Shown one piece after another: positions 2,162-62,069 of a stretch of DNA of 64,000 bases (within the stretch, counting starts at the first letter, position 1; each line of letters opens with the position of its first letter). The stretch comes from a marine bacterium B5-7 (GTDB lineage: Bacteria; Pseudomonadota; Gammaproteobacteria; BQJM01): positions 502 through 64,501 of the forward strand of contig BQJM01000004.1 in the NCBI GenBank assembly GCA_021604705.1, given 5' to 3'. The notes beneath the pieces were generated by a model that worked only from the letters and a program-made list of their open reading frames with translations, was not told the origin of the DNA and searched no databases. Made by a program: the position numbers and the translations under genes.

Positions 2162-2241
2162 TGTCATCCCGCGCTTGACGCGGGATCTCCATGTAGTACC
2201 GCAGTACTATCAGGAGATTCCGGCTCAAGGCCGGAATGACA
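2162..2241. repeat. Composite palindromic intergenic element (module A + spacer + inverted module A'), copy 1, dnaK/dnaJ spacer
   Basis: tgtcatcccgcgcttgacgcgggatctcc ... ggagattccggctcaaggccggaatgaca. The two arms are near-reverse-complements with compensatory stem changes. Confidence 0.85.
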
Positions 2242-2279
2242 ACTGTCTAGGATCACAAACATTGGAATAAAATTGCATC

Positions 2280-3413
2280 ATGAGCAAACGTGATTATTAT
2301 GAAATTCTTGGCGTCGACAAAAACGCTGATGAAGCCACGCTAAAAAAAGCGTTCCGTAAGTTAGCGATGAAGTATCATCCCGATCGTAATCCGGATGACA
2401 ATACCGCTGAAGATAAGTTTAAAGAAGTCAAAGAAGCTTACGACATGTTAAGCGATCCCCAAAAGCGTCAAGCTTACGATCAATATGGTCATGCTGCGGC
2501 TGATCAAATGGGTGGGTTCGGCGGCGGTGGCGGCGGATTTGGTGGTGGTGGTTTTAGCGATGTCTTCGGTGATATCTTTAACGACATGTTTGGTGGACGT
2601 GGTGGTGGCGGACAGCAAGCACAGCGCGGCGCTGATTTACGTTATGATATGGAAGTAACGCTAGAACAAGCAGTCTTTGGTACGGAAGAAAAAATTCGTA
2701 TTCCTGTCACCGCTAACTGCGATACTTGTTCTGGTAGTGGCGCTAAGCCAGGCACAAAGCCTGAAACTTGTTCCGACTGCAAAGGCCATGGTCAAGTTCA
2801 CATGCAGCAAGGTATTTTTACCGTGCAGCAAGCGTGTCCTAGCTGTCGTGGTACGGGCCAACGCATTAAAAACCCCTGTACGTCTTGTCGTGGACAAGGG
2901 CGTGTACGAAAACAAAAAACTTTGTCTGTTAAAATTCCTGCCGGTGTGGATGATGGCGATCGCGTTCGTTTATCTGGTGAAGGTGAAGCGGGTGGCATGG
3001 GTGGCCCATCAGGTGATTTATATGTACAGATTTACGTAAAAAAACATGCTGTCTTTAAGCGTGAGGGTAATGATCTTTACTGCGAGGTTCCCATTACGTT
3101 TACTTGTGCGAGCTTGGGTGGCGAGATTGTTGTGCCAACACTAAGCGGCGAAGTTAAGTTAAAAATCCCAACCGAAACCCAGAGTGGAAAATTATTTCGT
3201 CTGCGTAATAAGGGCGTTAAATCTGTTCGCAGCGGTAGCGTGGGTGATTTGTTATGTCGTGTGATGGTGGAAACGCCGATAAAGTTATCGACAGAGCAGC
3301 AGAAACTATTGCGTCAATTCCAAGAATCATTAGATAATGACGATGTGTCACATTCACCCAAATCACGATCTTGGTTTGATAACGTTAAACGATTTTTTCA
3401 AGGTAGCCACTAA
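2280..3413 (+). CDS. dnaJ: Co-chaperone DnaJ
   Basis: 377 aa. J-domain with HPD (KYHPDRN), G/F-rich linker, four CxxCxGxG zinc-finger repeats, C-terminal domain. Confidence 0.97.
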
Positions 3414-3889
3414 TGGAACGTATCCCTTTAACTGTATATGGTGCTGAAAAATTAAAAGATGAGCTGGAACACCGCAAACGTGTTGAACGGCCGGCAATCA
3501 TCAAAGCAATTGCGGAAGCGCGAGAGCATGGCGATTTAAAAGAAAATGCGGAATATCATGCTGCTCGCGAGCAACAAAGTTTCGCAGAAGGGCGCATTCA
3601 AGATTTAGAAGGTAAGTTATCCTTGGCGCAAGTGATTGATGTGACTAAGATGGAAAATAATGGTCGTGTTATTTTTGGTGCGACAGTGCATTTGATTCGG
3701 CTTGATGATGATGCTGAAGTAAAGTATCAGATTGTGGGCGCAGACGAGGCCAGCGTTGAACATAACAAAATTTCTTATCAATCACCGATTGCACGTGGTT
3801 TGATTGGTAAAGAAGAAGGTGAGTCAGTTAACATTCAAGCGCCAGGCGGAGAAGTTGCCTACGAAATTGCGGAAGTTGAGTACGTTTGA
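3413..3889 (+). CDS. greA: Transcription elongation factor GreA
   Basis: 158 aa. N-terminal coiled-coil ([37 protein letters not shown]) and C-terminal FKBP-like domain typical of GreA. Confidence 0.9.
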
Positions 3890-61122: not shown

Positions 61123-61956
61123 ATGAGTGAAAGGGTTGGCACACAAACTTGTTATCCCGACCTTGCGCCGGGAGCTCCGGATATCACTGTGGTCCAGCCA
61201 AGCACTGTCACCTACGAGCAACCTCTTAACGAAGTCATTCGCACCTGTCTGCGCCTTTCACAGTCCTTTCAGCAAATTATCCATGCGATACAGGGGGCTA
61301 CGCCATGGAACAGCCGAGCGGCCTTATCTGGCATATTAGATGTCTTGAGCATCCTGGACAGGCCAGACTTAAAAAGCAAGCTCAGCAAAGCCTTACAACA
61401 GCACCACGACAAACTGGCTAAGCTCATTCACTCTCCCAAAATTGATACGGATCGTTTGCAGCAAGCGCTCACGGAAATTCATGAAGTGAGTGAAAGCCTA
61501 ATTAAGCATCATGGAAAATTTGCACAAGGTTTACGAGAAGATAAATTTCTTGACCACATTCGTTTACAATTACAAAATGGCGTGGGGCAATTAGAGTCAG
61601 CCGCTTTTCGTTATTGGTTAAACCGTCCTGCTGAGGCGAGAAAACATGACTTAACCCAGTGGCATGCTGCATTTTCTTTGATTGAATCCGCGGTTAATTT
61701 ATTGTTAAGCATGATCCGCGATAGCACGCATGCAACGAAGCAAACAGCGCAGCATGGATTCTTTGAGATGGCGTTGGATCAACAGCAATCTTGCCAACTG
61801 GTGCAGGTTATTATGGATTCACAGGCTGGCGCATATCCTGAAATCAGCGTTAGCCGACATCACTTATGTATTCGCTTTCTCACACAGGAAGATGGACTTT
61901 GCTCTGTGCCTGTTGATACCGACATTGCTTTTTCTTTGAAGATTGGGGTTTTGTAA
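61123..61956 (+). CDS. zapD: Cell-division protein ZapD (YacF)
   Basis: TYEQPLNEVIRTCLRLSQSFQQI aligns with the ZapD N-terminus (LFEHPLNEKMRTWLRIE..). The C-terminus ...CIRFLTQEDGL..PVDTDIAFSL resembles ZapD. The real start may be an internal GTG near 61189. Confidence 0.6.
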   Translation: MSERVGTQTCYPDLAPGAPDITVVQPSTVTYEQPLNEVIRTCLRLSQSFQQIIHAIQGATPWNSRAALSGILDVLSILDRPDLKSKLSKALQQHHDKLAKLIHSPKIDTDRLQQALTEIHEVSESLIKHHGKFAQGLREDKFLDHIRLQLQNGVGQLESAAFRYWLNRPAEARKHDLTQWHAAFSLIESAVNLLLSMIRDSTHATKQTAQHGFFEMALDQQQSCQLVQVIMDSQAGAYPEISVSRHHLCIRFLTQEDGLCSVPVDTDIAFSLKIGVL

Positions 61957-61979
61957 GCTGTTTTCATCCCGGCTTTCGC

Positions 61980-62069
61980 TGTCATCCCGCACTTGATGCG
62001 GGATCTCCTGATAGTACTAGCAAGTACGCTAGCACCTGATGGAGGTCCCGCGTCAAGCGCGGGATGACA
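61980..62069. repeat. Canonical full composite element (A + palindromic spacer + A')
   Basis: tgtcatcccgcacttgatgcgggatctcctgatagtactagcaagtacgctagcacctgatggaggtcccgcgtcaagcgcgggatgaca. Its right arm encodes the last 5 codons and the stop of coaE on the opposite strand. Confidence 0.9.

What the first reader, a model, noticed from the sequence alone, without database searches (positions are those of the whole stretch)
2162..62069. Family of GC-rich composite palindromic elements at 13 intergenic loci, six of them inside the nuo operon
A 28-nt hairpin module, tgtcatcccgcRcttgaYgcgggatctcc, recurs throughout the window. So does a diverged reverse-complement form, ggagattccggctcaaggccggaatgaca, in which the stem has changed cccgcg/cgcggg to tccggc/gccgga, i.e. 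compensatory changes that preserve pairing. The two are usually joined by an approximately 30-nt spacer that is itself palindromic, giving a unit of about 90 nt able to form three hairpins or one long cruciform. Loci are about 2162, 4546, 7929, 16515, 19363, 19926, 23677, 25462, 26222, 33436, 35940, 40180 and 61980. They occupy almost every larger intergenic gap between co-transcribed housekeeping genes: dnaK/dnaJ, rlmE/ftsH, tRNA-Leu/nuoA, nuoD/E, E/F, G/H, I/J and J/K. The nuo operon is normally very compact. Compensatory stem substitutions argue for selection on structure, whether for RNA stability, processing or termination, or as a substrate for a REP-tyrosine-transposase-like enzyme. No such transposase lies in this window.
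Basis: seen in the sequence. Interest (0 to 1): 0.7.

Follow-up and report, generated by a model that had tools for sequence, protein, structure and literature searches.

The report
Known CGTC-type palindromic repeats (REPs)
The recurring GC-rich hairpins are real, but they belong to a class of small palindromic repeats (CGTC-tagged REPs) described in 2013, here unusually dense in an uncultured marine gammaproteobacterium and inserted between genes of its respiratory complex I operon.

Summary
A covariance model finds 29 copies of a 29-nt module at the 13 reported loci, and nothing comparable elsewhere in the window. The module is (T/C)GTC, an 8-bp stem, a CTTGA loop, the return stem and a CTCC tail. 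Four of the eight stem pairs covary.

Most copies sit tag-outward in 80-92-nt inverted pairs whose two arms differ. Homology ends exactly at the tags.

These features match the published text definition of CGTC-tagged REPs, family 2 (Di Nocera et al. 2013). That definition covers the TGTC tag variant, head-to-head heterodimers, a position just after stop codons, and no linked transposase.

- The same motif occurs in more than 120 genomes of many phyla.
- The exact 28-mer occurs in more than 120 unrelated metagenome contigs.
- A relative with 63% NuoJ identity has a compact nuo operon without these elements.
- A relative with 98% NuoJ identity has different elements in the nuoJ/K gap.

They are therefore recent, fast-changing insertions. 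They lack U-tracts, so they are not intrinsic terminators. No RAYT or other transposase is present.

Verdict: a new member of a known kind, of modest interest. What mobilises CGTC REPs remains unknown.

The parts
2162..2241 (+). Head-to-head heterodimer in the dnaK/dnaJ gap. Left arm is TGTC-ATCCCGCG-CTTGA-CGCGGGAT-CTCC and the right arm has stem ATTCCGGC. It starts 8 nt after the dnaK stop.
   Evidence: (-47.4 kcal/mol, z -5.1)
4546..4614 (+). Two same-strand modules in the rlmE/ftsH gap: 4546-4574 (degenerate) and 4586-4614.
   Evidence: D3; 34.3 and 47.6 bits
7929..8057 (+). Grouped elements in the gap after glmM: an inverted B-type arm at 7929-7957, then modules at 7988-8016 and 8030-8057. 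A separate T-run hairpin at about 7870-7890 precedes them.
16515..16594 (+). Head-to-head dimer between tRNA-Leu and nuoA, with arms ACCCCGGC and ACCCTGGC.
   Evidence: (-64.2 kcal/mol, z -9.95)
19356..19422 (+). The nuoD/nuoE insertion: one module (19363-19391), the spacer and a truncated right arm (GGAGA...). It is flanked by a 10-nt direct repeat GATCGATGAG (19346-19355 and 19423-19432). The repeat duplicates the stop/start junction that relatives have in compact, overlapping form (TAATG).
19926..20005 (+). Head-to-head heterodimer in the nuoE/nuoF gap, 9 nt after the nuoE stop.
   Evidence: (-58.8 kcal/mol, z -6.8)
23678..23880 (+). Two and a half tandem copies of the 87-nt heterodimer unit in the nuoG/nuoH gap. 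Five modules are present and the two full copies are 99% identical.
   Evidence: (D2)
25460..25617 (+). nuoI/nuoJ gap: a long-loop variant (25460-25498), a single module (25501-25529), then a head-to-head heterodimer (25538-25617).
   Evidence: -73.8 kcal/mol; D5
26220..26352 (+). nuoJ/nuoK gap: a long-loop variant (26220-26258), then a 92-nt head-to-head dimer (26261-26352). The dimer is 93% identical to the one at 61978-62069. A half-arm remnant follows it.
   Evidence: -86.9 kcal/mol, z -7.1; D4
33436..33514 (+). Head-to-head heterodimer in a convergent gap, 1 nt after the upstream stop. The right arm has a 4-nt GAAA loop. Degenerate remnants continue to about 33590.
35940..36019 (+). Head-to-head heterodimer between a TPP-enzyme gene and a glutamate-synthase-like gene.
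40180..40208 (+). Single module in a 43-nt convergent gap, 6 nt after the upstream stop.
61980..62069 (+). Head-to-head dimer in the convergent zapD/coaE gap. Its right arm overlaps the last 17 nt of coaE, and the TGA of the CTTGA loop is the coaE stop codon.
   Evidence: -71.2 kcal/mol, z -10.4; D4

Best explanation
These are repetitive extragenic palindromes of the CGTC-tagged superfamily. By stem and loop length they are family CGTC-2.

The basic module is an unpaired (T/C)GTC tag, an 8-bp G+C-rich stem, a 5-nt CTTGA loop and a short unpaired tail. The unit that spreads is mostly an 80-92-nt head-to-head pair with tags outside. Its two arms carry different stems, and its spacer is conserved and itself palindromic.

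Shown here:
- They are insertions into otherwise compact intergenic or overlapping gene junctions.
- They turn over quickly between close relatives.
- They amplify in tandem, and near-identical copies lie 36 kb apart.
- They sit 1-50 nt after stop codons and avoid divergent (promoter) gaps.
- They have no U-tract.
- They are not linked to any transposase gene.

Inferred:
- They are non-autonomous mobile DNA, copied in trans by an enzyme encoded elsewhere and still unidentified.
- The heterodimer form persists because perfect long palindromes are unstable.
- Because they lie inside transcription units, they are transcribed into very stable hairpins. These most likely act as incidental barriers to 3'-to-5' exonucleases or as processing sites within the nuo mRNA. 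They are unlikely to be elements the operon depends on.
For: Identity:
- The module anatomy matches the text definition in PMC3733652. That definition gives the tag as CGTC, often TGTC; an 8-bp stem for families 1 and 2; a 5-nt loop for families 2 to 4; a short tail; predominant head-to-head dimers; heterodimers predominant in CGTC-2; a position under 20 bp from the upstream ORF end in co-directional and convergent gaps; and no transposase.
- In the window, 13 of 13 loci are in co-directional or convergent gaps and 0 of 4 divergent gaps are occupied.

Structure:
- 96% of stem cells are paired and 4 of 8 pairs covary.
- Folding energies are strongly below shuffled controls.

Insertion and mobility:
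- Homology ends exactly at the tags, and the spacer is conserved among loci.
- Relative L123 has overlapping or 0-23-nt nuo junctions and no elements there. Its nuoA-N span is 14,310 bp against 15,068 bp in the window.
- Relative L122, with 98% NuoJ identity, has a different element content in the nuoJ/K gap.
- An 87-nt unit is repeated in tandem at 99% identity (D2).
- Two 92-nt dimers 35.7 kb apart are 93% identical (D4).
- A 10-nt direct repeat flanks the nuoD/E insertion.
- Independent assemblies of the same organism break inside modules, as expected for a multi-copy repeat.

No transposase:
- None in the window.
- None recurs near 240 non-viral loci.

Not terminators.
Against: - Figure 2 of the 2013 paper, which holds the family consensus sequences, could not be read. 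Assignment to family 2 therefore rests on the text definition only.
- The tail here is CTC(C), not the usual CCA.
- Only 64 kb plus three short contigs of this organism were available, so genome-wide copy number is inferred.
- Mobility is inferred from comparisons. No empty site at near-identical sequence was found, and only 1 of 13 loci shows a convincing flanking direct repeat.
- All seven or eight heterodimers in the window have the CCCGCR arm upstream on the plus strand. A purely random inserter would not give this, and it remains unexplained.
- No expression data exist for the proposed RNA effects.
Confidence: 0.82

Rival explanations
1. REPIN/RAYT system. The dimers would be non-autonomous partners of a domesticated IS200-like tyrosine (Y1, HUH) transposase encoded elsewhere in the genome. 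That enzyme would recognise the hairpin and the 5' tetranucleotide on single-stranded DNA.
For: - The dimer is the unit of spread.
- A hairpin with a conserved unpaired 5' tetranucleotide resembles GTAG REPs.
- All heterodimers in the window share one strand orientation on a stretch with uniformly positive GC skew. This is compatible with strand-specific insertion of single-stranded DNA.
Against: - The tag is (T/C)GTC, not GTAG.
- No Y1 transposase is in the window.
- The published survey found RAYT genes in several CGTC-bearing species, but none flanked by CGTC repeats.
- No recurrent transposase lies near 240 loci elsewhere.
- In 84 metagenome loci, arm orientation shows no link to GC skew.
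- RAYT-linked REPs are reported as more diverse than CGTC repeats, whereas this exact 28-mer is shared by unrelated bacteria.
Confidence: 0.12
2. Selected RNA regulatory elements. The hairpins would be kept because they stabilise upstream mRNA segments or direct processing, setting relative expression of nuo subunits and of other operon members.
For: - They lie 1-50 nt after stop codons inside transcription units.
- They form very stable structures.
- Stem changes are compensatory.
- The published view is that most such REPs are transcribed.
- REP-dependent mRNA stabilisation is established for E. coli REPs (own knowledge).
Against: - They are absent from the same operon in relative L123.
- They are replaced by different elements in the 98%-identical relative L122 and in L124.
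- Heterodimer orientation relative to transcription is random elsewhere, 19 to 25.
- Wobble mismatches show no strand asymmetry.
- Covariation can also arise from DNA-level hairpin constraints or from module swapping. Four of the 6 differences between the two 92-nt copies are two compensatory pairs in one arm.
Confidence: 0.15
3. Intrinsic (Rho-independent) terminators or attenuators.
For: They are G+C-rich hairpins just downstream of genes.
Against: - None of the 29 modules is followed by a T-run.
- The terminator scan lists none of them, and its total is not above chance.
- Five lie between essential co-transcribed nuo genes.
Confidence: 0.03
4. Assembly or sequencing artefact, such as chimeric joins at repeats.
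For: The source is a metagenome-assembled genome.
Against: - The same elements at the same junctions appear in an independent Logan assembly of run DRR328265.
- Related elements appear in ENA metagenome contigs.
- The family occurs in isolate genomes of other taxa.
Confidence: 0.01

Closest known systems
CGTC-tagged REPs, family CGTC-2 (Di Nocera, De Gregorio and Rocco, BMC Genomics 2013; PMC3733652)
   Same: - Unpaired CGTC/TGTC tag, 8-bp stem beginning with A-T, 5-nt loop and a short unpaired tail.
- Head-to-head dimers with tags outside, mostly heterodimers.
- Position close to the 3' end of the upstream ORF in co-directional and convergent gaps.
- Occasional overlap with ORF ends.
- No linked transposase.
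   Different: - The tail is CTC(C) rather than CCA.
- The second stem position is C in 7 of 29 copies.
- The host is an unclassified marine gammaproteobacterium, whereas the family was described mainly in Alphaproteobacteria.
- Density is high, at 29 modules in 64 kb.
- The family consensus figure could not be read.
E. coli REP/BIME and Pseudomonas REPIN elements (GTAG-tagged REPs with RAYT transposases)
   Same: - Short tagged hairpins.
- Inverted heterodimers (compare the Y/Z REPs in BIMEs).
- Tandem amplification of dimer units.
- Location after genes inside operons.
   Different: - Their tag is GTAG.
- They are linked to RAYT genes flanked by REPs.
- The 2013 survey describes GTAG repeats as less alike across taxa than CGTC repeats. 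Here one exact 28-mer is shared by unrelated bacteria.
Neisseria dRS3/NIME repeats and Rickettsia palindromic elements RPE-4/RPE-6 (classed as CGTC-1 and CGTC-4 in PMC3733652)
   Same: Same superfamily: CGTC tag, an ATTCC...GGAAT type stem, and dispersal in compact genomes including those of intracellular bacteria.
   Different: - Loop or stem lengths differ (4-nt loop, or 9-bp stem).
- Rickettsial copies often lie inside coding sequences. Here none of the 29 lies fully inside an ORF.
Coxiella burnetii QMITE2 (Wachter et al. 2018; PMC5896051)
   Same: - Small, highly structured repeats in 3' untranslated and intergenic regions of a gammaproteobacterium.
- Direct repeats of 7-11 nt of variable sequence. 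Compare the 10-nt repeat at nuoD/E.
   Different: - QMITE2 carries a GTAG REP.
- It is 150-190 bp long.
- It is a target for IS1111. No IS is present in the window.

Membership tests
CGTC-tagged REP superfamily (CGTC-2) | Unpaired terminal tetranucleotide CGTC, with TGTC or CCTC as accepted variants | tested here: met
   Of 29 modules, 22 carry TGTC, 5 CGTC, 1 AGTC and 1 TCTC. Positions 3-5 (T, C, A) are invariant.
CGTC-tagged REP superfamily (CGTC-2) | 8-bp stem with complementary A-T at the first two positions | tested here: met
   The stem is 8 bp in nearly all copies. Pair 1 is A-U in 21 of 22 distinct copies. Pair 2 is U-A in 16 and C-G in 5.
CGTC-tagged REP superfamily (CGTC-2) | 5-nt loop, which separates family 2 from family 1 | tested here: met
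   Most modules have a 5-nt loop, usually CTTGA (also CTCGA, CCTGA). The exceptions are one 4-nt GAAA loop (33487-33514), 8030 and 19363, which read as 7-bp stems with 6-7-nt loops, and 40180, which reads as a 9-bp stem with a 3-nt loop.
CGTC-tagged REP superfamily (CGTC-2) | Short unpaired 3' tail, mostly CCA | tested here: inconclusive
   A conserved unpaired tail is present, but it reads CTC(C). Copies of the same motif in other genomes carry CCA.
CGTC-tagged REP superfamily (CGTC-2) | Head-to-head dimers (tags outside) predominant, and heterodimers predominant in CGTC-2 | tested here: met
   Ten head-to-head dimers lie at 9 loci, and most have different stems in the two arms. No tail-to-tail dimer is present.
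CGTC-tagged REP superfamily (CGTC-2) | Intergenic, close to the 3' end of the upstream ORF, in co-directional or convergent gaps | tested here: met
   The first element starts 1-50 nt after the upstream stop. The occupied gaps are 10 co-directional, 3 convergent and 0 of 4 divergent.
CGTC-tagged REP superfamily (CGTC-2) | No transposase gene associated with the repeats | tested here: met
   No transposase domain was found in 60 ORFs of the window. None recurs near 240 loci elsewhere. The rest of this genome could not be searched.
CGTC-tagged REP superfamily (CGTC-2) | Dispersed multi-copy family across the genome | not testable with these tools
   Only the 64-kb window and three short contigs of the same or near-identical organisms were available. 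Those contigs end inside modules, which is indirect support.
GTAG REP / RAYT (REPIN) system | GTAG tetranucleotide at the REP terminus | tested here: not met
   The tag is (T/C)GTC in 27 of 29 copies and never GTAG.
GTAG REP / RAYT (REPIN) system | A RAYT (Y1 transposase) gene flanked by the REPs | not testable with these tools
   None is in the window.
Intrinsic terminator | G+C-rich hairpin followed directly by a U-run | tested here: not met
   No module appears in the terminator scan, and the tails read CTCC.
MITE (miniature inverted-repeat transposable element) | Terminal inverted repeats plus target-site duplications of fixed length | tested here: inconclusive
   The arms act as about 29-nt inverted termini. 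Only 1 of 13 loci has a flanking direct repeat of at least 8 nt. That repeat is 10 nt, at nuoD/E, and the null rate is 0.3% per locus.
CRISPR array | Same-orientation repeats at regular spacing, separated by unique spacers | tested here: not met
   Copies are inverted pairs at 13 scattered loci, and the spacers are homologous to each other.
Any Rfam RNA family | A match at the family's gathering score | tested here: not met
   Only two tRNAs matched in the window.

The most novel reading that the evidence does not exclude
The module could be the recognition site of a conserved trans-acting protein that is not a RAYT and is not encoded next to the repeats.

Three observations would fit this reading:
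- An exact 28-mer is shared by unrelated bacteria from termite guts, soda lakes and the sea.
- No transposase is ever linked to the repeats.
- Two sister lineages have had their nuo operons invaded independently by different CGTC subfamilies.

The 10-bp duplication of the overlapping nuoD stop / nuoE start would then be the footprint of targeted insertion at translationally coupled junctions.
Probability: 0.12. Interest if true: 0.7.

Novelty: new member of a known kind. Interest (0 to 1): 0.3.

Why it matters
For this window, the practical result is that the striking hairpins are explained. They are CGTC-type REPs, not a new regulatory RNA or a terminator system. Gene callers should not extend ORFs into them. 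Examples are the 124-aa nuoK ORF, the ATG inside a module at the 200-aa nuoJ ORF, and the coaE stop codon supplied by a module loop.

More broadly, the mobiliser of CGTC REPs has been an open question since 2013. Among the papers that could be searched, no later paper addressed it.

This organism is a convenient place to look for that enzyme and to test what such hairpins do to a polycistronic mRNA. It carries about one module per 2.2 kb. Close relatives differ in element content. Insertions lie inside an essential 14-gene operon.

Tried and rejected
- **Rfam scan of the window.** Only two tRNAs matched.
- **Looking for the mobiliser.** ORFs within 1.5 kb of modules in 120 genome loci, and then in 240 non-viral loci, were clustered. 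The recurrent families were response regulators, ABC ATPases, short-chain dehydrogenases and acyl-CoA dehydrogenases. No transposase appeared.
- **A gene flanked by inverted modules 1.1 kb apart (L039).** It is an ordinary cupin-domain gene.
- **Viral contigs as a possible vector.** These are gene-transfer-agent-like clusters of repeat-rich alphaproteobacteria and say nothing about mobility.
- **Polarity of heterodimers relative to transcription or replication in 120 metagenome loci.** None was found: 19 against 25 for gene orientation, and GC-skew sign 45 of 84.
- **Strand asymmetry of G.T against A.C mismatches as a test of RNA-level selection.** An apparent excess of A.C came entirely from the closing pair. 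Without that pair the count is 19 to 12, which is not significant.
- **Plasmid collection search with one dimer.** No match.
- **Fetching the rest of the source contig.** The MAG contig is not in the gene-position index.
- **Resemblance to type I-E CRISPR repeats and to a tRNA-like minihelix with a CCA tail.** Considered from memory and dropped. The arrangement is not CRISPR-like, and the tails in this window are not CCA.
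Full report
**Observation.** The A form has 16 matches with up to 3 mismatches and the B form has 5. 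None is expected in dinucleotide-preserving shuffles.

Reading the loci and a hairpin-aware scan show one module type. It is (T/C)GTC, an 8-bp stem, the loop CTTGA, the complementary stem and the tail CTCC. I aligned 22 distinct copies. The stem is paired in 96% of cells. Four of eight pairs change on both sides, and no shuffle reaches the observed covariation score.

A covariance model from that alignment, run with filters off, returns 29 hits of 30-51 bits. All are at the 13 reported loci. The score then drops to 15.6 bits. Together the elements occupy about 1.26 kb, or 2% of the window.

**Anatomy of the composite unit.** Ten pairs of modules stand in inverted orientation with the tags outside. 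A spacer of about 22 nt separates the arms. It is itself palindromic and is homologous between loci. Homology to other copies stops exactly at (C/T)GTCA on the left and TGAC(A/G) on the right.

In most pairs the two arms carry different stems, CCCGCR against YCCGGC. Each arm is therefore a perfect hairpin, while the arm-to-arm duplex has mismatches.

As single strands the units fold at -47 to -87 kcal/mol, with z-scores of -4 to -10.

- The nuoG/H gap holds two and a half tandem copies of an 87-nt unit at 99% identity (D2).
- The nuoJ/K dimer and the zapD/coaE dimer, 35.7 kb apart, are 93% identical over 92 nt. Four of their six differences are two compensatory pairs in one arm (D4).
- A second, long-loop variant occurs twice.

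**Context.** Pfam scans identify the following genes:
- dnaK, dnaJ, greA, rlmE, ftsH and glmM;
- an exonuclease I-like gene and an ankyrin-repeat gene;
- tpiA, secG, tRNA-Leu and nuoA to nuoN;
- rimP, nusA, infB, rbfA, truB and pnp (rpsO was assigned from position and was not scanned);
- toxin-antitoxin-like pairs, a Fic gene, an ABC transporter, secA, zapD and coaE.

No transposase or recombinase is present.

Of the 28 gaps of at least 40 nt, 13 carry elements. These are 10 of 19 co-directional plus-strand gaps, 3 of 3 convergent gaps, 0 of 4 divergent gaps and 0 of 2 minus-strand gaps. The first element begins 1-50 nt after the upstream stop codon.

None of the modules is followed by a T-run, and none appears in the terminator scan. 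The coaE stop codon is the TGA of a module loop.

**Source and relatives.** SecA is 100% identical to a protein of the MAG 'marine bacterium B5-7', an unclassified gammaproteobacterium. The next hit is 65% identical.

- An independent Logan assembly of run DRR328265 contains the same dnaK and dnaJ regions. Its contigs end inside the modules, as expected for a multi-copy repeat.
- A relative with 63% NuoJ identity (L123) has a compact nuo operon, with overlapping or 0-23-nt junctions and no elements in it. It carries related modules beside secG, beside tRNA-Leu and after nuoN. The nuoA-N span is 14,310 bp there and 15,068 bp in the window. The difference roughly equals the five insertions.
- A relative with 98% NuoJ identity (L122) has almost identical flanking genes but a different set of elements in the nuoJ/K gap. 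These include a dimer nested in a split older arm.
- A third relative (L124, 57% identity) has a different CGTC-tagged long palindrome in its nuoF/G, H/I, J/K and N/gltS gaps.

The elements are therefore lineage-specific insertions with fast turnover.

At nuoD/E a 10-nt direct repeat, GATCGATGAG, flanks the insertion. It duplicates the stop/start junction, which in both relatives is compact and overlapping. No other locus shows a convincing repeat.

**Distribution elsewhere.** Hits came from Sphingomonadales, Comamonadaceae, Coxiellaceae, Patescibacteria, Dehalococcoidia, Nitrospirota, Bacteroidota and others. In 63 of 144 matches there was a head-to-head partner within 150 nt.

Judging by contig names and my own recollection of the projects, these include termite-gut and soda-lake samples. 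The contigs have 35-60% G+C, and their neighbouring genes are unrelated to one another.

**Comparison with what is known.** These features match the CGTC-tagged REP superfamily described by Di Nocera, De Gregorio and Rocco in 2013 (PMC3733652). That paper gives:
- a CGTC tag that is often TGTC;
- an 8-bp stem (families 1 and 2) beginning with A-T;
- a 5-nt loop (families 2-4);
- a short unpaired tail;
- predominantly head-to-head dimers, with heterodimers predominant in CGTC-2;
- a position close to the upstream ORF end in co-directional and convergent gaps;
- occasional overlap with ORF ends;
- no associated transposase.

The paper lists Coxiella burnetii, Neisseria and Rickettsia among the hosts.

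The window's elements meet every criterion I could test. The exception is the tail sequence, which is CTC(C) here instead of CCA. I could not read the figure with the family consensus sequences. They fail the defining test of the GTAG/RAYT family, because the tag is different.

A full-text search found no later paper that addresses what mobilises CGTC REPs.

**How it most likely works.**

Shown:
- The units are inserted DNA with sharp ends.
- They are duplicated locally and at a distance.
- They differ between close relatives.
- They avoid promoter gaps and coding sequence.
- They are not terminators.

Inferred:
- They are non-autonomous elements copied in trans by an enzyme that is not encoded nearby.
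- Heterodimers persist because perfect long palindromes are unstable. This is the argument made in the 2013 paper.
- Once inside an operon, they are transcribed into very stable hairpins. These probably block 3'-to-5' exonucleases or attract endonucleases. I regard this as a side effect that selection tolerates or occasionally uses, not as the reason they exist.

**Tests of the RNA-selection rival.** In 120 metagenome loci, the orientation of the A arm relative to flanking genes was 19 against 25. There was no link to GC skew. G.T against A.C mismatches were 19 to 12 once the closing pair was excluded. None of these supports strand-specific selection.

**Search for a mobiliser.** I clustered neighbouring ORFs in 360 loci. 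Only housekeeping families emerged, plus gene-transfer-agent-like clusters in the viral collection.

**Unexplained.** All heterodimers in this window have the CCCGCR arm on the plus strand, upstream of the YCCGGC arm. There are seven or eight of them, depending on how the tandem copies are counted. Here gene direction and positive GC skew coincide, so the two possible causes cannot be separated in this window. The wider data show no such polarity.

**Verdict.** The RAYT and termination suggestions are wrong. The kind of element is already described. This is a new host and a dense, well-placed example, so interest is modest.

Noticed in passing
window 14706-14738 and 15311-15343: A 33-nt direct repeat (94% identical) lies 605 nt apart. 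The second copy overlaps the tpiA start at 15318. The segment between the copies holds an 82-aa ORF with no Pfam match. It looks like an insertion that duplicated the 5' end of tpiA.
   Followed up: no
window 62053-62069: The minus-strand coaE gene ends inside the right arm of a REP dimer. Its last codons and its TGA stop come from the module, the TGA being that of the CTTGA loop.
   Followed up: partly
window 19346-19355 and 19423-19432: A 10-nt direct repeat GATCGATGAG flanks the nuoD/nuoE insertion. It duplicates a stop/start junction that is compact and overlapping (TAATG) in two relatives. It is the only one of 13 loci with such a repeat, and the chance rate is about 0.3% per locus.
   Followed up: partly
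window 25612 and 26322: The longest ORFs for nuoJ (200 aa) and nuoK (124 aa) start at ATG codons inside REP modules. Comparison with relatives puts the likely true starts at about 25636 and 26394.
   Followed up: partly
L124 2740-2934, 9345-9493, 10649-10802, 16127-16278 and 5190-7973: A relative (GCA_028284465.1) carries a different CGTC-tagged long palindrome, CGTCATTGCGAGGAG...CTCCTCGCAATGACG, in four gaps of or next to its nuo operon. It also has a 927-aa ORF with no Pfam hit on the opposite strand between nuoG and nuoH.
   Followed up: partly
L123 1072-1589: The secG/tRNA-Leu gap of a relative with a compact nuo operon contains tandem units of about 150 nt built from related modules. A long-loop TGTC module follows the tRNA.
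   Followed up: no
L125-L244 (for example L131, L144, L182, L243): Many copies on one group of JGI metagenome contigs (termite-gut samples, judging by the contig names from memory) have the exact 28-mer. Their dimers sit inside an outer palindrome, TGTCTCAAAAGnCT ... AGnCTTTTGAGACA. A second group of contigs (apparently soda-lake samples) share a left flank TGTCCAAAAAGGGC.
   Followed up: no
L303 2814-6540: A contig from the viral collection carries 12 CGTC modules, all on one strand, within 3.7 kb. They often occur as pairs 48-156 nt apart and are interleaved with a second repeated hairpin. This arrangement is rare for the family.
   Followed up: partly
L245-L364: About half of the viral-collection hits share terminase, portal, prohead protease, capsid and GTA-gp10 genes. 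They are gene-transfer-agent-like clusters with CGTC modules in their gaps.
   Followed up: partly
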